Part shown: positions 16,806-33,017 of the stretch, piece after piece
Layout of the letters: each line of letters starts with the position of its first letter
Numbering within the stretch: the first letter of the stretch is position 1
Assembly (NCBI RefSeq): GCF_009914755.1
Contig: NC_060935.1
Source: the human T2T-CHM13v2.0 reference genome, Homo sapiens
Strand: one strand, 5' to 3'
DNA length: 64,000 nt
Notes under the pieces: model-generated
What the model saw: only the letters and a program-made list of their open reading frames with translations
Databases searched by the model: none
What the model was told of the DNA's origin: nothing
Translations under genes and position numbers: made by a program

Positions 16806-19800
16806 ATAGCCTTTGTTTCTTCATCTCTAAAATGGGATTGATAGCTTACCTCACAGAGTTGTTATCATGATTAAATGAAATACATATATAAAGCATCTGG
16901 CATCCAATATGTGATCAAAAAGAACAAAACAAAAAAGGTAACTATTATTAACTCAAGTCTACTAAAAATCTCTACCAGGTAATATTGTGTTATAACATTG
17001 TTAGTATTAAAATAATGATATTTGATAATGCTATAACATTTTACATAGGGATTTTACATGTATTACATTATTTGATTCTCAGAGCAGGGCTGTAAAACAC
17101 AGAATAAAATATTATTCCTCTTAAAAGAGAGGAAGAAACTGAGGGTGAGAGAACTTAAGTGACTTGAACAACGGTCCAGACTAGAAAGTGTCAAAGAGTT
17201 CAGAGTCAAACCTAGTCCTTTTCCCACCACTAACATATCGATACTAAACACCCATTTAATGAACTATTAGGCATCAGGCATTATTTTAGGCCCTGAGAAT
17301 ACAGAGGTAGATAAGAAAGTCAAGGTTCCTGCCCTCATAGATCTTACATTCCCTGTTCTACTCTATAGAATTGGAAATAACAATTTAAACTTTTCATTAA
17401 ACATTTCTTTAGTCTGAATTAGCATGTTTTAAAATATTTTATGACTTGGAAATGCTACACTAACTTTGTCCAGATTCCTAAGTCCATTTCACTAGCAGTG
17501 ATGTAATACAAGGCAGAGGCATGGTTGTATGTTTCAGTGTTTGACTGGCTAAATACCAAGTAAATGCTCCATACATACACCAAACAATTGTTCATTGATT
17601 TTCACAATAGAGTTTGTGTCTTGAACTTCAAGCCTTAACAAAGGTTTGATAAGCACTATTCATCTCTCATCTTCTTGCATAAAGTTTAGTTGGTGAAATT
17701 CTGCCTTTTTTCCTAGAGTACAAAATTAAGCAGAAATAGAATAGGTAGAGTTTAGGGTGCTGCACTATTTAGGAATTGCTGGAATTACTTGATGCATGCA
17801 GGAAAAATGTGAGAACTTCATAACTGGTAGTCTATTGTGAAAATATTATTGTAGTAGGACTCAAAACAGACTAGAGTTCTATATTATATTTGACTGGATA
17901 CTGAAGCCTGAGAGCAGCTTATTTTCTAAAATAAGTACACAGTATGACTGTCAGAAGTGTTTCCCCCTCTCCAAAGTCTTTTTCTGAAAAGGAATGTTGG
18001 CTTAGTTCCTGATGACAGCTGAGTGGCCAAATTATGGTGCTTTAATAGACCATAAATATTTTAAAAAGCTGAGATGGGTATTTGCAAAGTGAGTTTCTGT
18101 TAAGGTACATGTATTCTACAGCCATCTTCACTCCTGCCTTTCAAAACAGGCAGTTGGTTGAGGAAAAAAAAAGATGCATAAATGTTGCTGAATGAACCTG
18201 GGAAAATCTGTCAAGAATTCCAAAAACTTTGAGACTGACAATACACCATTTTTTACATCTTAGAGTATAAGAAGTGATGTCTAACCTTTGCATTTATACA
18301 TCTAAGAATAGCAAAAACACTTTGCACTTTAAAGGCCTCCTATAAAGTCCCAAAGTGCTTCCGGACGGTTAGGTGATTCTTCCATAGCTATAAAATGGTT
18401 GTTAATTGCCTAACAACTAGCAAGTGCTCTGGAAATGGACATCCAGAGTGATCCTTAAAATATTATTTTAGTAGCATTGAGAAAAGCCTTGAAAAATAAA
18501 ATCTTATTCTGTTATTCCAAGCTTACTCAGTGCTATATTATTCAGATCAGGGTTCCCCTTACACACTTTGGGCAGGATGATAGGGGCTACTTCTCTATAT
18601 GAAGTCTTGAAATCATATGATTCAAGGTGATTCAAGGTGGAGGGAATTTAAAAATTAAAAAAATAATTCCAACAGTGAAATTCCTAAGGGTGAGTCTTTG
18701 CTCTTCTACCCACTAAGAATTCCGGCTTCCTCTTCCCAAAAGAACAGAAGAGTGGGGAAAGATTTGTGACAGCCAAAAGGACATGGTGTAGCAAGCCAAC
18801 TTGGAAGAGTTACTGGAGATGGCTTAGCAAATATTCATGCCTTTACTCAACTAAAACAAAAACAAAACAAGTCAAATTTGGGCATTTTTTATAGATCACA
18901 GGCTTTTGTTTGATCAATGCACTACATTTCTTTATGACAAAAGGTAACGACAATGATTTTGCATATTCCCAAATTTGGATAGTTGTCCAATTTAACAGTC
19001 TCAAGGAGCCTAACATGGTGCTGTGTGGGATGAAAAGAGGTTCAAAGTATGATCCCTGTCTTAAAATTAAGATACAGAATCTTCCAATTAATATGTATAT
19101 TTTCTAAAGTGGAGTCCTTAAACTGCTGGATCTCCTCAGAAGTCTTTTGAGGGTCCCAATATCATCCAAGCTTTGAGTTTCTCAAAAGAAAGAGTATATG
19201 ATACTAATAGGTCTACAATACTCATTACAATAGCTCTTCCCTCAATTCCCTTATACATTTGTAAATACTCCCTAAAGGAGGTAACCTAACCCTCACCCCT
19301 TCCCCGTGTTTAAGAACCACAGTGGCTTCCCAACACAGTTGAAATAAAATCCAAACCCCTTACACTGGCCTGTAAGACCCTCAGTGCCCTGCCTCCTTCC
19401 TACCTACTGACAATTTCTATGATGCATTCCTCAGACACACCTCACTCTTTCCTGCATCAGGGTATTTGTACTTGCTTTCTTTCCCTCTGGAATATTCTTT
19501 CCCCAATCTTCATTTGATTGGCTCCTTCTTATTACTGAGGTCTCAGCTCAAATGTCATTTCCTTGGAAATACCTTCTTAGATCACTCGCAGTAAGGACCC
19601 TCCTTCATTTACTCTCTTTTGAAAAAATTTCCTTGTAGCACTTATTATTGTCTGTCTCTCCCACTAGAATGTAAATTCTTTGAGAGCAAACATAACTTTT
19701 TTGCTTCTTGGTGTTGCTATAGATTTAGTCTAAGTTTGATATTTCTTTCAGCATGCCTGAAATTTTAGCAAGTTAGAGACAAATGTAGGCACTCAGGTTA

Positions 19801-24472: not shown

Positions 24473-25149
24473 TTAGGAGCTTTATATTTATACATTCACA
24501 TTTAATCTTGATAACAACCCTTCAAAGGAGGCGTAATTGTAATTTTATAGATGAAACAACTGAGGTTCAAGTTCAGATTACCGTACATTACAAAGTAAAG
24601 TAGGTACTTGAACCTAGTCATTTTACCACATTCTGCCTTAATGGTGGGGGGTGGTACCTTTACTCCCTAAAATGGAAGTTTCAATAAATGAGATTAAATA
24701 ATGGTTATCTACAGTAGTTCTTGACTACAGGAGTAACAAATATTTAACACTGAGTTGGTGAACTGTGTTGCATGACGTGATGTAGGAAAAGTAGCCCAGA
24801 GACAGGAAATTCAGTCAGGAAATTTTTACAGTATTATAAGAACAAACTGATTTCTGGTCTAAGCATCTCTGACTACAGTAAAGTCTCATTAATTTATACT
24901 GCATGTGGAATTTACAATAATCTATATAGGAACTGAGAAAAAAACAAAGTATCTGAAAATACTCTTCACACTTCATCCCCTCTCCCTCAATAGTTCAGCC
25001 TGAATCATAAAACTATGACATTCCTCGATGACCTCTGCATAATGGCCACACTGAACTCTAGTTAATAGAGTAAGTGAGCCAAAAAACCCAAAGGGTAGCA
25101 GTGTGTACACCTGCTACCATACCAATCAATGAATGTAGGAAATCCCCCA

Positions 25150-25612
25150 TTCCATTTTTTGTTGGTTCACTTTCACCAACATGTTTTTCCTTTACTGAGC
25201 ATCTAATTTAGTAAAGCCTTTTTCCAGATTATGGAGACACAGATTTGGATAAGACTCAATAAGACTCTCTAAGAGCTTAGTCTGAAAACATTGGGAACCG
25301 TGAGACCATCAAGGAGTTCACAGTTGAGACAGACACAAACATTAAATACAAGTGTGAAACAGCATCAGAATAGGAAGATACAGAGAATGAAAGTACCTAC
25401 AAGTCAAAGTGTTGAAGCAAATAGGAGCCTACCAGAAAGTAAGATGGGGACAGAATCGCTTTTTGAGACCTGAAACGATAAAACAGTGTGATATGTTTAG
25501 GGAATGGCAAGAAGTTCCATGGGATTGGAGAGCTGCAGAGTAGACACGGAAAGATTGGTAGGGATTAGATCCTGAAGAGATATGTTAAGGGACTGGGACT
25601 TTATCTTGGGGA
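25150..25612 (-). mobile_element. Diverged L2 fragment immediately downstream of ZBED5
   Basis: L2-like motifs (caacatgtttttcctttactgagcatct; gggaatggcaagaagttcc; ggactttatct). Confidence 0.5.
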
Positions 25613-25748
25613 TCATTATTTCCCAGTTATGATCATGGAACTCTTTAAAATTACAATGTAAAGAAATACCAATAATAACACAATATGTTTAAAACGTTTG
25701 ATTCTTTAGCCTTCTTAAAATCTAAATAGTATAAAAAAATGGAATCAT

Positions 25749-25797
25749 TTTATTTAAATCCCCCAAATACCAGAGATGAAGTAAATCATCTTTTATT
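25749..25797 (-). terminator. ZBED5: ZBED5 polyadenylation signals
   Basis: two AATAAA on - strand (tttatt at 25749-25754 and 25792-25797), 47-90 nt after the stop codon. Confidence 0.7.
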
Positions 25798-25843
25798 TTC
25801 ATCTTACATTTGGTTATCATGAGACATGCAAACTCCTCCAATT

Positions 25844-28066
<2,223 letters not shown>

Positions 28067-28324
28067 CTTAAAGGTAGATTATCACATAAAAATAAAAGCT
28101 ATAGAAATGAGTTTAGCAGTCTTAATCTCATATTTAAATAAACATATTAAAATCAACCATAAAGAAAAACCAATATTAGCATCAATCATTTTCTCAAAAC
28201 ATTTATTAACTTAGAGAATATTAATATTCTATAAAACATAATTTGGGAATCACTGAGCCAATAAATTATTAAGAGTTGTTATACATATTTTTAAGAAAGG
28301 GACCCTGAAGAATATGTCCCATGG

Positions 28325-28502
28325 CAGGGGTTGGCAGGCTTTTTTTGGTCAAGGGCCATATAGTCTCTGTTGCAACTACTCAACTCTGTAGTTGTAACAT
28401 GACAGCAGCCATAGACAATACATGAAAGAATGGACACAGGTGTGTTCCAATAAAACTTTACGTACAAAACCAGACAGCATGGGCCATAATTTATCAGCCC
28501 TG
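28325..28502. mobile_element. MER58A-like hAT-Charlie MITE in ZBED5 intron 2
   Basis: caggggttggca...cagccctg; 8-bp TSD tcccatgg / tctcatgg. Confidence 0.85.
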
Positions 28503-29123
28503 TCTCATGGTATGTAGTATTGTGAAATCTCTTTTAGCTTTTGATGCCTACTGCCATTAGATGTATTAGTTGTTGATACTATTATATATCTGAAGTCCCT
28601 TCAGGGCTAGCAACAATTCTGAAGAAGTGAATTAAACACACACACAGTTCCAAGTTTTGCGAGATACATAATTCTACTGTATCCTAAATGTTATGCGTTA
28701 ACAATGAAGAATAAATTGTATATCAAAAGTTAGGTACTGTTTCTCTGGACTTAAATTATATAAATGTTTATATTATCCAAATTAAGACTCAATGAAAGTA
28801 ATGTATATTTTTACAGATAACTCTGCATTCTATTTATACAACAGGTGACGACTTAACCAGGACCTAAAAAAAAAAAATAAACTCTCATTTAAGAGGTTTA
28901 TTTCTCATATAATAAAACAAATCAAAATTAAAAGGATAATGCAATCTAAGGATTGCTAAAGAATACTATTAACTCTATAAATCAAGGCATACAAATTATG
29001 TCTGTCCAAATATAGCTACTTTTGATTTAAACTTTATAACCTGGCTATAGAGTAAGTTTTGTATTCTCATGTTAGATCTTGAGTCAAAATGGTTCTCCTA
29101 TTAAGGGGTAGAGGATGAGATAC

Positions 29124-29237
29124 CTGAAATAAGGTGTTCTCCTTTCTGTAATCCCTCTCTCCACCTTGGCAGCTTGAAATGCACTCTTCAAAAGAATAAA
29201 ATTAAGGGATGGGGTGGGAAGGGGAGTAACCAAAAGC
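29124..29237 (-). other. ZBED5: ZBED5 exon 2 (114 nt, 5'UTR), contains a GUG in strong context
   Basis: acceptor ttaatttttctcattctag|gc at 29237; donor ttcag|gtatct at 29124; gccaagGTGG at 29164. Confidence 0.75.
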
Positions 29238-30841
29238 CTAGAATGAGAAAAATTAAAATTAGATACAGTAACAAGCAGAACTAACTATAAACCCGTAAGA
29301 TGGGTTTATTCTTTCTGGATCTAAGCAGTGAAAATGATTCTTTACTGCAATGCAGATCTTGGACTGAAAGAGAAGACGCCTAGCATAGTAAAAATTCTAA
29401 CATTTTCATCCTGTTCAATATCTTGGCAATTTAGATGCTTTGAGATGTTCCCCCACCTACTGACTTCATAGAAACATGTTAAAACAACACCACCACCACA
29501 CTTTCTAGAACTTGAAACTAAGCCTAATTTTTAAAAGTACAACCTCATCAATGTCTCTAAAACTAGGTCTTGAATCTAAAATGGAATTATACATAGAACT
29601 ATTACATGAAGCAGTTCTTTCACTACAATCATTTTTAGCCCCCCAGTGACCAATCTCCTCAGGTAAACAATGTCTAATGACTGATGATTGTTTACTGTAT
29701 GCCAATTACTGCTAAATCCCTCACATAGATTATCTCATCTATGAAGACACAAGGATTATTAATAACCCCACTTTAGAGATAAACAGACACAGGTTAACAC
29801 ATCTCGCTAACACCTCTTGTAAGTGAAAAACCAAGTTCAGAGCCCAAAAAGTTTGACTGCATAGCCCATGTGTCTAGCCATTACTTGGGTGTTCCTGAAT
29901 ACTTTTAATTCCCCAACTACTAAAAAATCTCGTTACTAGGAGTTGGGTTATGCAGCGAAACGGATGAACAATGGATTATAACTGCCAGAAAGTCGAGGGT
30001 CTCATACTAGCAACAGCATAAAGCCCTGCTTCTTATTGGGAGCAAAAAAGCAGATTCTCCTTCCACAGTCTCCTTTTGGATTTTGCAACGGAGAACTCTG
30101 TGGAGCTGCTGGTTCACGTAAAAGATCAGGATCCCTCTCGTTGCCAGAGGACACAGAAGAGTAGGAAGCTTTTGTTTTCAGAAAGAAGGTCCTCAACCCC
30201 ACCTCTTCGAAGGTGTTTCCCCGAATTTCTCGAGGACAAAGAATCTGGACTCCTTTGAGAGTAAAGTTTCCTTTCCACTCCCTGAAGAGCGGGGAAAACT
30301 TCCGTCTTTAGTCTCCTTCCGGTTAAACTGACAAGTATCACAATCCTTTCTCCCCTATCTTCGGGCGGTTCCGGCTGGGAACAATACCCTCAGGGTCAGG
30401 AGGACAGGATCTGAGTGCAGGCCAGCCAAAAAGGTGGGAACAGATGCTCCTTCCAACACCTAAATGCTTTTTTAAACGGTCACCTGGATGTGCAGCCAGG
30501 GCCAACTATCCCTCAGCTCCTCCCTGTCACAGGTGCGCGCTGCCCACAGATTGCCACGACTGGGGGGCTCCCTACCAGTCGCAGCCCACCCTCGCCTCAG
30601 GTCTTCTCTCGCGTCCCCGGGCGGCCGCCTGCGCTAACGACCACATGAAAACGTCTCAGCACCCAACACCATCTCTCTATTTCATCTCCATCAGCGATGG
30701 AGAGAACGGATTTTGCCGCGGCTGGGCTGCACAGCAGCGCCGCGGTCCACAGCAGAGCCCGCGACCGCCATCTTAGGCAGTTCCAGGAAGCGGCCATTTC
30801 AGAGCGCACCGCTTAGCCGCGGCGGCGGCTCTGCTTCTCAC

Positions 30842-31070
30842 CTTCACCGAGGCCTGAACAGGGTCAACAGCCAGTCGTCGTGGACTGGAGGGGGAGGGGA
30901 GAGAGGGAGGGGAATGAAAAACAAAACAGAGAGGAAAGAAGGATTCGGGGACAGGGTGATGCTCTCAGCTCAGGGATATCGCCTAGGCCATCTCCATAGA
31001 GATCCGATTCGCGGCTGGCGCGGTCGCCGGTCTGAAGATAAATTTAGCACTCTAGAGCACCCGAACCCTA
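30842..31070 (-). other. ZBED5: ZBED5 exon 1 (5'UTR); 5' end approximate
   Basis: donor tcggtgaag|gtgaga at 30842, lies in the CpG island just downstream of CCAAT/GC boxes. Confidence 0.7.
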
Positions 31071-31267
31071 CAATCTTCACGAGCGACTCTGCCGCCGCCC
31101 AATCAGCGCCAGATTTGCGTCCCGCCACCAATCCGCGCTGAGCAGCGGGGCGGGACCAAAGGAAAGGACCAAGCTCGGTTGAGGCGCGGCCCAGCCGCAG
31201 CCGCAGTCACAGCCTCAGCCGCAGCGGCCGTGCTACCTAGGTGATAGCGGAGCGGCTGGGTAGGAAG

Positions 31268-31479
31268 CAATTGTTCTCAAACTTCACTAGCCCCGTCGGC
31301 GCGGACGCTTGTCGAGAATGCAGATTCCTGGGTACTGCCAGATACGGTTGGTGATCTTGTAGGGCTGGAGTGGAAGCCATGAATCTGCATTTTCATCATT
31401 TCTGGCCCTCTGCCCGGGCTGGGGTGATTCACGGGGATTCGTAGTGGCCCCAAAGGAGCACGCAGAACCTCGGCTGCTG
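31268..31479. mobile_element. MER5A-like hAT-Charlie MITE within the CpG island
   Basis: caattgttctcaaactt...gcttgtcgagaatgcagattcctggg...gtagggctggagtgg...gaatctgcatttt matches the MER5A layout. Confidence 0.65.
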
Positions 31480-32619
31480 TGCATTTATCACCTCTTTTGT
31501 TCCCGGAGGCCGCACCCCAGGTCCAGTTTACACAGCTGCCAACTCCTTTTCTTGGTTCCCACTGGAATCTAGGAAGAAAACTCGCCCTTTACTTCTCCGC
31601 CCCACACCCGACGACGGAGTGTCTAGAGGTCTGGTCGGCCTTGGCTGTGCGGAGGGCTAGGCCTGACGAGCGGGCGCTGATGCGGCGCAGACCCCGCCGG
31701 ACCTCTTGGTCGGCCCGGGGTAGGCTGGGGAGCCGCGGGAACAGGACTGGATAGGGAAAGCGGCACCGCAGCGTCCACGGGCAAGCTGAAAGTCCGCTTG
31801 ATGTCTTTGCATCACAGTGGCGCCCTCCCCGCAGGAACGCCCGGCCGCCTGCACCGAACGTTTGCCTGCAGGGAACGGCCAACCCGCCCTGAAATACTCT
31901 TTTTGTGGGCTGCAGCTTTCGGGTATTTTAAGCCATGGTTCTGTGCCCTTCCTTGTTTTCAAAAACACCACAGCCAAAGGCTGCGGGTTGTGTGCTTTCA
32001 TTTTGTGTTAAGTTCTGTGGTGGAGACCTGGAGTCTGTTTTTCCAAATAGGCACCTTGAAATAGATACGCTTCTTAAGCGGGGAAAGTACGAGTAGGTCC
32101 TATTATTTGCAATGTTTTAGCCTTTCCAGACTCCGTACAAATGACTAAATGAAGATTGGATCGTATTTTCAGGCACTGCACCAATGATAGAAAATTCTCA
32201 ACTTGGGGTCAAAAGCAAGGGCAGCTTTCGTTTTTCTTAAATATGCTTCTGATCAAATATCTAAAGTGTTGAAAGAAACCTAACCCTTAATAGCACAATT
32301 TACAGGAGTGCATAATTTCCTAGGACTGACATTTAGTTCCAAATGTTTTAAAGTCAATTACAACATCATCTCACCCTATAGTAAGCTGTCCATATATTCT
32401 CATTATTATTTTTAAATTATTTCTATTAAATCAGCTTCATTTGAACTTTAACCATAAATGCATAAATCGTTTTTGGGAAGGGGGTACAGTCGCGCTTGAA
32501 GAGCAAGGGATTTTGTCATTGCGGGAGTTGTCTGGCTTCAGAATAATATTGGAATAATATATTTTCGTGTTTCATATTTTAGAAAAACCTTTTACATATG
32601 TGCTCCCAAACCAATCTTT

Positions 32620-32895
32620 TTTTATTTTTTATTTTTTTTATTATTATACTTTAAGTTCTAGGGTGCACAACTTGCAGGTTTGTTACATATGTATACATGT
32701 GCCATGTTGGTGTGCTGCACTCGTTAACTCGTCATTTACATTAGGTATATCTCCTAGGGCTATCCCTCCCCCCTCCCCCCACCCCACGACAGGCCCTGGT
32801 GTGTGATGTTCCCCACCCTGTGTCCAGGTGTTCTCATTGTTCTATTCCCACCTATGAGTGAGAACATGTGTTTGATTTTCCTGTCCTTGCCATGG
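32620..32895 (-). mobile_element. Young L1PA 3' end (5'-truncated)
   Basis: ttattatactttaagttctagggt...; 18-bp TSD gctcccaaaccaatcttt (32602-32619 / 32896-32913). Confidence 0.93.
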
Positions 32896-33017
32896 GCTCC
32901 CAAACCAATCTTTACACATCTTGTTTACATCTTCATGAAGAGGGAAAACCCAAAATATTAAACTGTTAGGCAGAATAGTGTTTAAATAAGTACATCTAAA
33001 GTTTAGGAATTAGGTCC

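What the first reader, a model, noticed from the sequence alone, without database searches (positions are those of the whole stretch)
29124..31160. ZBED5 promoter and exons 1-2 appear to be a duplicated 5' end of the neighbouring EIF4G2 (DAP5/NAT1) gene
Seen: the - strand exon 2 ends ttattcttttgaagagtgcatttcaagctgccaag-GTGGAGAGAGGGATTACAGAAAGGAGAACACCTTATTTCAG|gt. Exon 1 reads gccagccgcgaatcggatctctATGGAG...ctgagctgag...gtccccgaatccttc...ttttgttttt...cgacgac...ctcggtgaag|gt. From memory, EIF4G2 exon 2 ends ttattcttttgaaga...tcaagccgccaaa-GTGGAGAGTGCGATTGCAGAAGGGGGTGCTTCTCGTTTCAG|, which is 30/41 identical and ungapped from GUG to donor. Its exon 1 has tcggagctctATGGAG...ctgagctgag...gtccccgactccttc...cgacgac...ctcggtgaag|. 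EIF4G2 lies just outside the left edge of this window on the same strand. Inference: a partial tandem duplication of a housekeeping gene's promoter and leader exons was spliced onto a Buster transposon, creating ZBED5. I do not know of this being described, but cannot exclude it.
Basis: partly seen in the sequence, partly recalled or inferred. Interest (0 to 1): 0.9.

Follow-up and report, generated by a model that had tools for sequence, protein, structure and literature searches.

The report
ZBED5 borrowed EIF4G2's duplicated front end
The promoter and first two exons of the transposon-derived gene ZBED5 are an old, diverged DNA copy of the front end of the neighbouring translation-factor gene EIF4G2, which shows how a domesticated transposase obtained a housekeeping promoter and leader.

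Summary
On the minus strand, window 31200-30783 covers the core promoter, exon 1 and the start of intron 1. It aligns colinearly with the EIF4G2 5' end 49 kb away (E 6e-46). Window 29283-29121 covers the end of intron 1 and exon 2 and aligns with E 1e-22. In whole-genome searches the only other match is a chr8 retrocopy of ZBED5 itself.

Both copies share two inverted CCAAT boxes 29 nt apart, the TSS region, an upstream AUG, a CU-rich tract, both splice sites of intron 1, the exon-2 donor and the GUG start context. From GUG to donor, 30 of 41 bases match.

Weaker colinear homology reaches about 1.5 kb upstream (0 of 200 shuffles reach it). It ends at the exon-2 donor. No other EIF4G2 exon has a copy in the window.

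Because promoter and intron are included, this was a DNA-level partial duplication. The orphaned donor splices into a low-copy repeat at the head of the Buster exon.

In the RefSeq transcript the inherited GUG opens a 44-codon upstream ORF. A 2026 ribosome-profiling table lists this site as translated.

I found no paper describing the duplication. The 1999-2001 transposon literature could not be checked.

The parts
31201..32565 (-). Distal upstream region with weak colinear homology to the region upstream of EIF4G2 (chr11:10894085-10895508). It overlaps ZBED5-AS1 exon 1 and RefSeq 'enhancer' features.
   Evidence: Colinear HSPs: 32451-32342 (E 2e-6), 31599-31472 (E 4e-5), 32072-31987 (E 0.006). 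Colinear-band bit sum was 123 against a shuffled mean of 1.9 and maximum of 58; 0 of 200 shuffles reach it. It is not a high-copy repeat.
31034..31200 (-). Core promoter in a CpG island, duplicated from the EIF4G2 core promoter. It has two inverted CCAAT boxes (GATTGG at 31133-31128 and 31104-31099), the second overlapping a GGGCGG box.
   Evidence: 71% of alignment columns are identical, against 28% (sd 9.5%) for shuffles. The 15- and 16-nt words around the two GATTGG boxes are among the longest exact words shared with EIF4G2. Box spacing is 29 nt in both genes. GC is 0.59-0.64.
30842..31033 (-). ZBED5 exon 1 (non-coding), homologous to EIF4G2 exon 1. It holds a uATG at 30997-30995 (4-codon uORF), a CU-rich tract at 30959-30882 and the donor CTCGGTGAAG|GTGAG.
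   Evidence: Alignment; 70.5% identity at ungapped sites. The uATG motif CTCTATGGAG is shared. The CU tract is 68 of 78 pyrimidines, against 72 of 78 in EIF4G2.
30782..30841 (-). First 60 nt of intron 1. This is the best-preserved block and includes the shared word AAATGGCCGC.
   Evidence: 74% of columns identical (81% at ungapped sites), against 36% for shuffles; motif position.
29238..30781 (-). The rest of intron 1. The body is almost fully decayed relative to EIF4G2 intron 1. The last 60 nt, with the acceptor, are preserved.
   Evidence: Middle part: 34% against 27.7% (sd 3.0%) for shuffles. Colinear bit sum is reached by 2 of 200 shuffles. Last 60 nt: 62% against 34%.
29124..29237 (-). 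ZBED5 exon 2, homologous to EIF4G2 exon 2. It holds the NAT1-type start context GCTGCCAAGGTGG (29173-29161), the GUG at 29164-29162 and the donor TTTCAG|GTA.
   Evidence: From GUG to donor, 30 of 41 bases are identical. Table S3 of PMC13754004 lists the ZBED5 site GCUGCCAAGGUGGAG.
27973..28066 (-). Exon-3 part of the GUG-initiated upstream ORF. The ORF has 44 codons in all and runs from 29164 across the exon 2-3 junction to the TAG at 27975-27973. It ends 47 nt before the annotated AUG (27925) and is in another frame.
   Evidence: Translation of the RefSeq-spliced mRNA; sequence; acceptor scan.
27841..28160 (-). Low-copy interspersed repeat. It covers both annotated exon-3 acceptors (28066, 28098), the exon-3 leader and the first 28 codons of the annotated ORF. 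It is probably the 5' part of the Buster element.
   Evidence: Three other genomic copies at 68-75% identity (chr11:127.36 Mb, chr2:108.84 Mb, chr12:4.94 Mb). That this repeat is the transposon's own 5' end is an inference.
25686..28066 (-). ZBED5 exon 3 with the Buster (hAT) transposase-derived ORF, coding 25844-27925.
   Evidence: RefSeq table supplied with the finding. The frame is open 25844..27976. Pfam zf-BED matches residues 127-157, E 8.8e-5. Buster-family placement comes from Hayward 2013, PMC3606216 (passages).
19090..19177 (-). Unannotated segment that an old transcript joined directly to the ZBED5 exon-2 donor, skipping the Buster exon.
   Evidence: 88.6% identity over 88 nt to the chr8 chimeric retrocopy, immediately after exon 2. 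It is unique in the genome apart from that copy.

Best explanation
ZBED5 is a mosaic gene. Its CpG-island promoter, exon 1, intron 1 and exon 2 (at least 3.3 kb, window about 32565-29121) are an ancient, diverged DNA-level duplicate of the 5' end of EIF4G2, which lies 49 kb downstream on the same strand.

The duplicate ends at or just after the exon-2 donor. That donor lost its EIF4G2 exon 3. It now splices to an acceptor inside a low-copy repeat at the head of a Buster (hAT) transposase ORF.

The transposase thereby acquired a ready-made housekeeping promoter with twin CCAAT boxes and a GC box. It also acquired a 5' leader that still carries the regulatory landmarks of the EIF4G2 leader:
- a short uATG ORF;
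- the CU-rich tract, which in EIF4G2 is the PCBP2 repression site;
- the GUG start codon in a near-perfect 'NAT1 motif'.

In EIF4G2 that GUG starts the protein. In the RefSeq ZBED5 mRNA it opens a 44-codon upstream ORF that ends 47 nt before the annotated AUG, so it should act as a translational gate.

Shown here: the homology, its extent, its colinearity, splice-site correspondence, exon 1-2 splicing and the reading frames. Taken from annotation or papers: the exon 2-3 junction, ribosome footprints at the GUG, and PCBP2 binding in EIF4G2. Inferred: that duplication came before the Buster insertion, that it predates the eutherian radiation, and that the inherited leader elements still function in ZBED5.
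For: - **Whole-genome search.** EIF4G2 is the only non-self, non-retrocopy match to ZBED5 exon 2 (E 1.9e-15) and to promoter plus exon 1 (E 2.8e-24 and 1.1e-5). The reciprocal search with EIF4G2 exon 2 returns only itself, ZBED5 and the chr8 copy (3 of 3 matches).
- **Colinear chain.** Eight same-strand HSPs span window 32565-29121 against chr11:10895508-10892231; residue-level alignments are.
- **Identity by feature, real against shuffled.** Core promoter 0.71 vs 0.28; exon 1 0.56 vs 0.27; first 60 nt of intron 1 0.74 vs 0.36; last 60 nt 0.62 vs 0.34; exon 2 0.68 vs 0.27. The first 60 nt of intron 2 (0.39 vs 0.30, sd 0.09) and the next 600 nt (0.32 vs 0.34) are at noise level.
- **Upstream 1.4 kb.** 0 of 200 local shuffles reach the colinear score.
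- **Longest shared exact words.** These are the two CCAAT-box blocks (15 and 16 nt, 29-nt spacing in both genes), the exon-1 donor (15 nt) and TTATTCTTTTGAAGA in exon 2.
- **TSS correspondence.** The RefSeq TSSs are 14 nt apart in the alignment. The 5' end of the chr8 retrocopy falls on GCCAGC (window 31019), the position homologous to the EIF4G2 RefSeq TSS.
- **No further EIF4G2 exons in the window.** See (17 low-copy HSPs kept of 1795). No Buster-exon homology lies within chr11:10880001-10912000 (visible part of a cut output).
- **Exon 1-2 splicing.** The chr8 copy carries the exact junction.
- **Acceptor inside a repeat.**
- **Leader elements.** CU tract 68 of 78 pyrimidines against 72 of 78. 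The latter figure matches the PCBP2 element of PMC6573783 section 7. The NAT1 motif is GCCGCCRNNXXXG (PMC13754004 passages), and ZBED5 differs only at position -7. Table S3 lists the ZBED5 GUG among sites with measurable footprints.
Against: - **No detected constraint on the leader.** A relative-rate test used the chr8 retrocopy as a neutral sister and EIF4G2 as outgroup. It gave 12 ZBED5-specific against 20 retrocopy-specific changes (chi-square 2.0, p 0.16). For non-CpG sites it was 11 against 15 (p 0.56). The exon/promoter identity pattern could therefore arise from constraint on the EIF4G2 side alone. It does not prove that the CU tract or the GUG still function in ZBED5.
- **Weakened start motif.** The C-to-U change at position -7 hits one of the two bases that PMC13754004 calls most critical.
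- **Conflict with Table S3.** The table labels the ZBED5 site 'Extended', meaning an in-frame N-terminal extension. With both RefSeq acceptors the GUG ORF stops after 44 or 23 codons. Only 1 of 14 AG dinucleotides scanned (exon start 27968, not annotated in the table I was given) would make it in-frame.
- **EIF4G2 exon junctions are inferred.** No annotation table for them was available, and no EIF4G2 processed pseudogene carrying exon 2 exists to confirm them.
- **Open points.** 'Tandem' and the order of events are not shown. No orthologous locus from another species could be examined.
Confidence: 0.85

Rival explanations
1. Capture first, duplication second. A Buster element inserted into intron 2 of the single ancestral EIF4G2 and was alternatively spliced to exons 1-2, as in the 'transposase capture' route. 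A later duplication of promoter-to-transposon then separated the two transcripts. The parental copy lost the element by excision or deletion.
For: This is the general route proposed for host-transposase fusions: insertion into a host intron, then use of a transposon-borne acceptor (Cosby et al. preprint 10.1101/2020.05.07.082677, passages). The ZBED5 acceptors do lie in repeat-derived sequence. EIF4G2 is a gene whose normal transcript could not easily be sacrificed, so resolution by duplication is plausible (inference).
Against: EIF4G2 and its flanks (chr11:10880001-10912000) hold no low-copy match to the Buster exon. This route therefore needs an extra loss step. The GUG frame is not in frame with the transposase ORF in either RefSeq splice form, so no fusion protein is evident today.
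Confidence: 0.1
2. The two 5' ends are not a single old duplication. They resemble each other through later gene conversion between neighbouring CpG-island promoters, through convergence of housekeeping promoter architecture, or by chance.
For: CCAAT boxes, GC boxes and pyrimidine tracts are common in housekeeping promoters and leaders (general knowledge). The copies lie on the same strand 49 kb apart, which permits conversion.
Against: Similarity is not limited to motifs. It runs colinearly through promoter, exon 1, both intron-1 ends and exon 2, and weakly for 1.4 kb upstream, with matching splice sites and phase. E-values reach 6e-46. Identity is 66-79% with no long identical tracts (longest shared word 16 nt), so there is no recent conversion. 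Conversion would in any case need pre-existing homology.
Confidence: 0.03
3. RNA-mediated origin: ZBED5 exons 1-2 are a retrocopy of the EIF4G2 mRNA 5' end.
For: Partial 5' retrocopies do exist. The chr8 locus is one, derived from ZBED5 itself.
Against: An intron sits at the homologous position, with homologous ends. Non-transcribed promoter and upstream DNA are included. No poly(A) tract or target-site duplication was seen or expected.
Confidence: 0.01

Closest known systems
Host-transposase fusion genes formed by 'transposase capture' (KRABINER, SETMAR, PGBD3-CSB; Cosby et al. preprint 10.1101/2020.05.07.082677, passages seen)
   Same: A transposase ORF is expressed as the 3' exon of a transcript. 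The 5' exons and promoter are of host origin. The junction uses a host donor and an acceptor lying in transposon or repeat sequence.
   Different: The host exons here come from a duplicated, truncated copy of the neighbouring gene, not from the functioning host gene itself. They contribute no protein domain. In the RefSeq transcript they are leader only, and the former host start codon opens an out-of-frame uORF. The words ZBED5, Buster and EIF4G2 do not occur in that preprint's main text; its supplements are closed.
The EIF4G2 (NAT1/DAP5/p97) 5' leader: GUG start in the NAT1 motif, and a PCBP2-binding CU tract (PMC13754004; PMC6573783; review PMC9945437)
   Same: The ZBED5 leader is its paralog. 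It has the uATG motif, a 78-nt CU tract (68 against 72 pyrimidines), and GUG with A at -3 and G at +4 and 12 of 13 motif positions. The splice sites and the exon-2 donor phase are the same.
   Different: In ZBED5 the GUG does not start the main protein. The 13 codons after it are 5 of 13 identical at the amino-acid level, so the peptide is not conserved. Position C-7 of the motif is U. Exon 1 lacks two EIF4G2 segments (gaps of 23 and 18 nt). PCBP2 binding to ZBED5 is untested.
GTF2IRD2, a TFII-I-family duplicate fused to a Charlie8 hAT transposase (details recalled from memory; only its listing under hAT-derived genes was seen, Table 1 of PMC3257199)
   Same: A duplicated copy of a host gene joined to a hAT transposase-derived exon.
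   Different: As I recall it, the host part there is a long coding region and the transposase forms the C-terminus of a fusion protein. In ZBED5 only the promoter and leader are host-derived.
[quoted passage not shown]
   Same: It concerns the same two ZBED5 introns.
   Different: The present data give another origin. Intron 1 was inherited ready-made from EIF4G2 intron 1, with both ends homologous. Intron 2 arose by juxtaposing an EIF4G2-derived donor with a repeat-borne acceptor.

Membership tests
Partial (5') DNA-level gene duplication giving a chimeric gene | Paralogous similarity that includes non-transcribed and intronic DNA, not only exons | tested here: met
   Core promoter 0.71, intron-1 first 60 nt 0.74 and last 60 nt 0.62 identity per column, against 0.28-0.36 for shuffles. 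For the upstream 1.4 kb, 0 of 200 shuffles reach the observed score.
Partial (5') DNA-level gene duplication giving a chimeric gene | Colinear blocks in the same orientation, with corresponding splice sites | tested here: met
   Eight colinear same-strand HSPs. Donor 1, acceptor 2 and donor 2 align base for base. The EIF4G2 junctions themselves are inferred.
Partial (5') DNA-level gene duplication giving a chimeric gene | The copy is truncated and the rest of the parent gene is absent from it | tested here: met
   No low-copy blastn hit to other EIF4G2 parts in the 64-kb window. In tblastn of 128 EIF4G2-strand ORFs, 19 queries had 10-56 window hits each and lie where one search found multi-copy repeats; the other three had 1-2 weak hits each (E 0.001-0.007, 14-42 aa).
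Partial (5') DNA-level gene duplication giving a chimeric gene | Tandem arrangement at origin | not testable with these tools
   The copies are on the same strand, 49,128 nt TSS to TSS (annotation). The original junction is not recognisable and no outgroup genome is available.
Host-transposase fusion (transposase capture) | 3' exon derived from a DNA-transposon transposase | tested here: met
   zf-BED match, E 8.8e-5. The hAT dimerisation domain was not detected at E 0.01 or better. Buster placement comes from PMC3606216.
Host-transposase fusion (transposase capture) | Host exons spliced to the transposase exon through an acceptor supplied by the transposon | tested here: inconclusive
   The junction is taken from the RefSeq table. 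The acceptors at 28066 and 28098 lie in a low-copy repeat, 28160-27841. That this repeat is the Buster 5' end is an inference.
Host-transposase fusion (transposase capture) | Host exons encode a protein part fused in frame to the transposase | tested here: not met
   The GUG ORF stops after 44 codons (acceptor 28066) or 23 codons (acceptor 28098) and is out of frame with AUG 27925. Table S3 of PMC13754004 nevertheless says 'Extended'. This is unresolved.
NAT1-motif non-AUG initiation site (GCCGCCRNNXXXG) | Sequence match at -9 to +4 around a near-cognate codon | tested here: inconclusive
   ZBED5 has GCTGCCAAGGTGG, 12 of 13 positions, with the mismatch at the critical -7 position. It is listed as single-base variant class GCNGCCA in Table S3.
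NAT1-motif non-AUG initiation site (GCCGCCRNNXXXG) | Measurable ribosome footprints from the site | not tested
   Reported by PMC13754004: Table S3 together with main-text and methods passages. I did not re-analyse the data.
PCBP2-repressed CU-rich 5'-UTR element | 78-nt polypyrimidine stretch in the leader that binds PCBP2 | not testable with these tools
   The composition is retained, 68 of 78 C+U against 72 of 78 in EIF4G2. Binding was shown only for EIF4G2 (PMC6573783 section 7).
Processed retrocopy of EIF4G2 | Intronless, no promoter homology | tested here: not met
   A 1.6-kb intron is present at the homologous site, and the promoter is homologous.

The most novel reading that the evidence does not exclude
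ZBED5 and EIF4G2 may form a coupled pair through the inherited module. The same NF-Y/Sp1-type promoter would give co-transcription. The same CU tract would put both mRNAs under PCBP2. The same NAT1-type GUG would read start-codon stringency (eIF1, eIF5, 5MP) with opposite sign: more GUG use makes more eIF4G2 protein, but in ZBED5 it diverts ribosomes into a uORF. The annotated ZBED5 AUG sits behind this GUG and 8 uAUGs in a poor context. ZBED5 may therefore itself depend on the leaky scanning and reinitiation that the abstracts listed (PMC9945437, PMC10742948) attribute to eIF4G2. On this reading the domesticated transposase would be a built-in reporter of the activity of the gene it was copied from.
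Probability: 0.15. Interest if true: 0.75.

Novelty: new member of a known kind. Interest (0 to 1): 0.55.

Why it matters
This gives a concrete, sequence-level answer to how one domesticated transposase obtained its promoter, introns and leader. They came by duplication of the 5' module of an essential neighbouring gene, not by de novo intron gain (as tabulated in PMC3257199) and not by fusion to a working host gene.

It also makes testable predictions:
- ZBED5 should share transcriptional inputs with EIF4G2. Co-expression of ZBED5-AS1 with an EIF4G2 isoform has been reported without this explanation (PMC9607547).
- ZBED5 should share translational inputs with EIF4G2, namely PCBP2 and start-codon stringency factors.

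For the non-AUG initiation field, the ZBED5 GUG is a natural diverged paralog of the founding NAT1 site. It carries a C-7U change and has been recast as a uORF, which makes it a ready-made evolutionary experiment.

The weight of the finding is moderate. The kind of event (partial duplication plus exon capture) is known, ZBED5's function is unknown, and I found no evidence of constraint on the leader.

Tried and rejected
- **EIF4G2 processed pseudogenes.** I looked for these to prove the EIF4G2 exon 1-2-3 junctions. None carry exon 2.
- **Rfam.** There were 0 matches at gathering score on chr11:10890001-10900000. On window 25000-33000 at E up to 1, there were only two sub-threshold mir-1289-like hits on opposite strands of 31308-31404 (26.7 and 22.3 bits against a gathering score of 66). 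I treat these as chance.
- **Relative-rate test for constraint on the ZBED5 leader.** Not significant.
- **Further EIF4G2 exons in the window.** None found at DNA level or protein level.
- **Buster-exon remnants in or around EIF4G2.** None found.
- **In-frame GUG extension.** Not supported with the RefSeq acceptors.
- **Dating by other vertebrate genomes.** No such genomes are held.
- **The 2001 human genome paper.** From memory it lists Buster1, possibly flagged as a fusion gene. It is not held. Smit's 1999 review and the original Buster1 GenBank record could not be consulted.
- **Literature searches for a prior description.**
  - ZBED5+EIF4G2: 6 papers.
  - Buster1: 22 papers, listing only.
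  - EIF4G2+Buster: 7 papers.
  - ZBED5+'transposase capture': 1 paper.
  - ZBED5+UTR+duplicated: 2 papers.
  - ZBED5+DAP5: 1 paper.
  - ZBED5+domesticated+mammals: 8 papers.
  - None of the passages I read describes the homology. Hayward 2013 only places ZBED5 'intergenic (downstream of EIF4G2)'.
- **TSD search.** The first attempt, by poly(A) runs, failed. A word search then found the duplication.
Full report
**What is there.** The window is T2T-CHM13 chr11:10912001-10976000. They sit in and just below a CpG island, with GC 0.59-0.68 between about 30400 and 31900. EIF4G2 lies outside the window. The assembly can be searched, so I fetched chr11:10880001-10912000.

**The homology is real and specific.**
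- A whole-genome search with the ZBED5 exon-2 region returned three places: itself, a chr8 locus (89% identity) and chr11:10892231-10892339 inside EIF4G2 (79%, E 1.9e-15).
- The promoter/exon-1 region returned itself, the same chr8 locus (82%) and two EIF4G2 pieces: 10893873-10894084 (73%, E 2.8e-24) and 10893635-10893693 (81%, E 1.1e-5).
- The reciprocal search with EIF4G2 exon 2 found only itself, the chr8 locus (81%) and ZBED5 (79%).
- A sensitive local blastn gave two strong same-strand blocks. Window 31200-30783 matches 10894084-10893626 (312 of 470 columns, E 6e-46). Window 29283-29121 matches 10892410-10892231 (128 of 180 columns, E 1e-22).
- Six weaker HSPs are all colinear with these blocks: 32565-32531, 32451-32342, 32072-31987, 31599-31472, 30707-30567 and 29431-29344.
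- I compared the whole 64-kb window with the 32-kb EIF4G2 region and removed multi-copy hits. This left 17 of 1795 HSPs. The only colinear same-strand series among them is these blocks.

**What is shared.** The alignments and the word search show the following features in both genes.
- Two inverted CCAAT boxes (GATTGG) lie in identical 15- and 16-nt words. The second overlaps a GGGCGG box. The spacing is 29 nt in both genes, at 100 and 71 nt (ZBED5) and 117 and 88 nt (EIF4G2) upstream of the RefSeq TSS.
- The TTCAGAC/GCCAGC start region is shared. The two RefSeq TSSs are 14 nt apart in the alignment.
- A uATG lies in CTCTATGGAG. It opens a 4-codon uORF in ZBED5 and a 16-codon uORF in EIF4G2.
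- Both have a long CU-rich tract.
- The exon-1 donor CTCGGTGAAG|GTGAG is shared, as are about 50 nt of intron 1 after it, including AAATGGCCGC.
- The intron-1 acceptor region is shared.
- So is a pyrimidine-rich start of exon 2, followed by TTATTCTTTTGAAGA.
- The GUG context and the donor TTTCAG|GTA are shared.
- The 13 codons are 5 of 13 identical as amino acids. What is kept is the initiation context and the splice site, not the peptide.

**Extent and nature of the duplicate.** The table gives identity per alignment column from MAFFT, with mononucleotide shuffles as control.

| Feature | Real | Shuffled |
|---|---|---|
| Distal upstream | 0.38 | 0.275 (sd 0.036) |
| Core promoter | 0.71 | 0.28 |
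| Exon 1 | 0.56 | 0.27 |
| Intron 1, first 60 nt | 0.74 | 0.36 |
| Intron 1, body | 0.34 | 0.277 (sd 0.030) |
| Intron 1, last 60 nt | 0.62 | 0.34 |
| Exon 2 | 0.68 | 0.27 |
| Intron 2, first 60 nt | 0.39 | 0.30 (sd 0.09) |
| Intron 2, next 600 nt | 0.32 | 0.34 |

- With shuffles that keep local composition, the colinear score of the upstream 1.4 kb was reached by 0 of 200 shuffles. That of the intron-1 body was reached by 2 of 200.
- The upstream region is not a common repeat.
- The unit is therefore at least 3.3 kb (about 32565-29121). It contains promoter and intron DNA, which rules out an RNA intermediate. It ends at or very near the exon-2 donor.
- No further EIF4G2 exon has a counterpart in the window at DNA level.
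- None has one at protein level either. I ran tblastn with 128 stop-to-stop ORFs of the EIF4G2 strand. Nineteen queries had 10-56 window hits each and lie where one search found multi-copy repeats. The other three had 1-2 weak hits each (E 0.001-0.007).
- Both genes are on the minus strand, with ZBED5 upstream. The TSS-to-TSS distance is 49,128 nt from the annotation. This fits a direct, possibly tandem, partial duplication whose upstream copy is the truncated one. The original junction is no longer visible.

**The join to the transposon.**
- The RefSeq table joins exon 2 to exon 3 at 28066, or 28098 in the other transcript.
- The long frame is open from 27976 to 25844. It carries a BED zinc finger (Pfam E 8.8e-5). 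Hayward et al. place it in the Buster family of hAT elements (PMC3606216, passages).
- Window 28160-27841 holds both acceptors, the exon-3 leader and the first 28 codons. It has three other diverged copies in the genome at 68-75% identity. It is thus a low-copy interspersed repeat, most simply the 5' part of the element.
- If so, the acceptor came with the transposon. Cosby et al. describe this for other captured transposases (preprint passages). This step is an inference.
- The roughly 960 nt between the exon-2 donor and this repeat match neither EIF4G2 intron 2 nor the repeat.
- EIF4G2 and its flanks contain no low-copy match to the Buster exon. 'Duplication first, insertion second' therefore needs one step fewer than 'capture in EIF4G2, then duplication, then loss'.

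**Independent proof of exon 1-2 splicing, and a bonus.**
- The chr8 locus carries ZBED5 mRNA positions 15-306, that is exon 1 joined exactly to exon 2, at 85% identity.
- It does not continue into the Buster exon. Directly after the exon-2 end come 88 nt that match window 19177-19090 on the same strand (88.6%, E about 1e-26). This segment lies 6.5 kb beyond the ZBED5 poly(A) end and is otherwise unique in the genome.
- An L1 5' end follows directly.
- The whole unit of about 7 kb is flanked by a 12-nt target-site duplication. It was therefore inserted in one L1-mediated event.
- It records an old transcript that started at GCCAGC (window 31019). That is the position homologous to the EIF4G2 RefSeq TSS. 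The transcript was spliced exon 1-exon 2 and then ran to a site downstream of the Buster exon.
- The dinucleotide before 19177 is AA in the present sequence. Whether that last join was a splice is therefore open.

**The inherited leader.**
- In EIF4G2 the best 78-nt pyrimidine window (exon 1, nt 87-164 from the RefSeq TSS) has 72 C+U. This is exactly the figure Smirnova et al. give for the element that is necessary and sufficient for PCBP2-mediated repression (PMC6573783 section 7). The homologous ZBED5 stretch (30959-30882) has 68 of 78.
- The EIF4G2 start is the founding example of the 'NAT1 motif' GCCGCCRNNXXXG (PMC13754004 passages). ZBED5 has GCTGCCAAGGTGG, which differs only at -7.
- Table S3 of that paper lists ZBED5 (class GCNGCCA, GCUGCCAAGGUGGAG, GUG, no +5G). 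By the main text and methods, this table holds 120 sites with measurable ribosome footprints.
- In the RefSeq mRNA the GUG (29164-29162) opens a 44-codon ORF. It ends at the TAG at 27975-27973, 47 nt before the annotated AUG and in another frame.
- With the other RefSeq acceptor the ORF is 23 codons. Of 14 AG dinucleotides between 28200 and 27926, only an unannotated exon start at 27968 would fuse the frames. The table's label 'Extended' therefore does not fit the transcripts I was given. I could not resolve this.
- The annotated AUG is preceded by 8 AUGs. It has T at -3 and A at +4.

**Is the ZBED5 leader still constrained?** I used EIF4G2 to polarise changes between ZBED5 and its chr8 retrocopy.
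- 192 sites are identical in all three sequences. 12 changes are unique to ZBED5, 20 are unique to the retrocopy, 55 are unique to EIF4G2 or fall on the stem, and 7 sites differ in all three.
- Tajima's test gives chi-square 2.0, p 0.16. Without ancestral CpG sites the counts are 11 against 15, p 0.56.
- Since the retrocopy was made, the ZBED5 leader has therefore not evolved detectably more slowly than a pseudogene. The power of the test is low.
- This suggests a sober reading of the identity pattern. Blocks that EIF4G2 keeps frozen have diverged on one lineage only and remain alignable. Neutral DNA has diverged on both lineages and is gone. Splice sites and CCAAT boxes are intact and in use. 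Function of the CU tract and the GUG in ZBED5 is plausible but unproven.

**Age (inference).**
- Jukes-Cantor distances are 0.317 for ZBED5-EIF4G2 (290 sites) and 0.167 for ZBED5-chr8 (301 sites).
- Suppose most ZBED5-EIF4G2 change lies on the ZBED5 branch and accrues near the pseudogene rate. The duplication is then several times older than the retrocopy.
- Using mammalian neutral rates recalled from memory, that puts it at or before the eutherian radiation.
- This fits a syntenic dog orthologue (PMC3606216 Table 1). It cannot be tested here because no other vertebrate genome is held.

**Known or new?**
- None of the passages and listings I saw describes the relationship. The searches and their paper counts are itemised under Tried and rejected.
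- Hayward 2013 only notes the neighbourhood.
- The 2023 eIF4G2 review contains none of the words paralog, duplication, pseudogene or promoter.
- The 2026 NAT1-motif paper lists the ZBED5 site only in a supplementary table and never names ZBED5 in its main text.
- The Cosby preprint does not mention ZBED5, Buster or EIF4G2 in its main text, and its supplements are closed.
- PMC9607547 reports co-expression of ZBED5-AS1-207 with an EIF4G2 isoform and explains it by cis-regulation.
- From memory, the 2001 genome paper's table of transposon-derived genes may flag Buster1 as a possible fusion gene. That paper is not held, and neither Smit's 1999 review nor the GenBank record could be read. I therefore leave roughly one chance in three that the relationship was noted before.

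**Verdict.** The kind of event is known: a partial duplication supplies a promoter and leader to a captured transposase. The case is instructive and appears to be undescribed in the accessible literature. It also gives the non-AUG initiation field a natural paralog of its model site. Interest is moderate, at 0.55.

Noticed in passing
L012 5990-5600 with L022 (chr8:106382001-106396000, minus strand); source segments are window 31019-30842, 29237-29124 and 19177-19090: A chimeric retrocopy. It contains spliced ZBED5 exon 1 and exon 2, then 88 nt from window 19177-19090, then a full-length-looking L1. All of it lies inside one 12-nt target-site duplication about 7 kb apart. It arose either by 5' transduction from a lost L1 at about 19090 or by reverse-transcriptase template switching. 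It is about 15% diverged from ZBED5.
   Followed up: yes
window 19090-19177 (minus strand): An unannotated segment that was once joined directly to the ZBED5 exon-2 donor, bypassing the Buster exon. It is unique in the genome apart from chr8. A pyrimidine tract precedes it, but the dinucleotide before 19177 is now AA, not AG.
   Followed up: partly
window 27841-28160: A low-copy ancient repeat with three other genomic copies at 68-75% identity (L024, L025, L026). It spans both ZBED5 exon-3 acceptors and the first 28 annotated codons. The odd N-terminus of the annotated protein may therefore be transposon leader sequence.
   Followed up: partly
window 29164-27973 and 27968: Table S3 of PMC13754004 calls the ZBED5 GUG ORF 'Extended'. 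Both RefSeq splice forms give short out-of-frame uORFs of 44 or 23 codons. Only an unannotated acceptor giving an exon start at 27968 would yield a 721-codon GUG-initiated protein.
   Followed up: partly
window 27925 and mRNA leader (exon 1, exon 2, 28066-27926): The annotated ZBED5 AUG has a weak context (T at -3, A at +4). It lies behind 8 upstream AUGs plus the NAT1-type GUG. Plain scanning should reach it poorly.
   Followed up: no
window 31197-31346 (+) and chr11:10894276 (+): Both copies of the duplicated CpG island are bidirectional, giving ZBED5-AS1 and LOC101928053. The two lncRNA starts are not at homologous positions. LOC101928053 starts inside the block homologous to about 31540, while ZBED5-AS1 starts at 31197 (annotation). 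PMC9607547 reports ZBED5-AS1-207 co-expressed with an EIF4G2 isoform.
   Followed up: no
window 31308-31404, both strands: Sub-threshold Rfam hits to mir-1289 (26.7 and 22.3 bits against a gathering score of 66) on both strands of the same stretch, which suggests a palindromic GC-rich segment in ZBED5-AS1 exon 1/intron 1. Probably chance.
   Followed up: no
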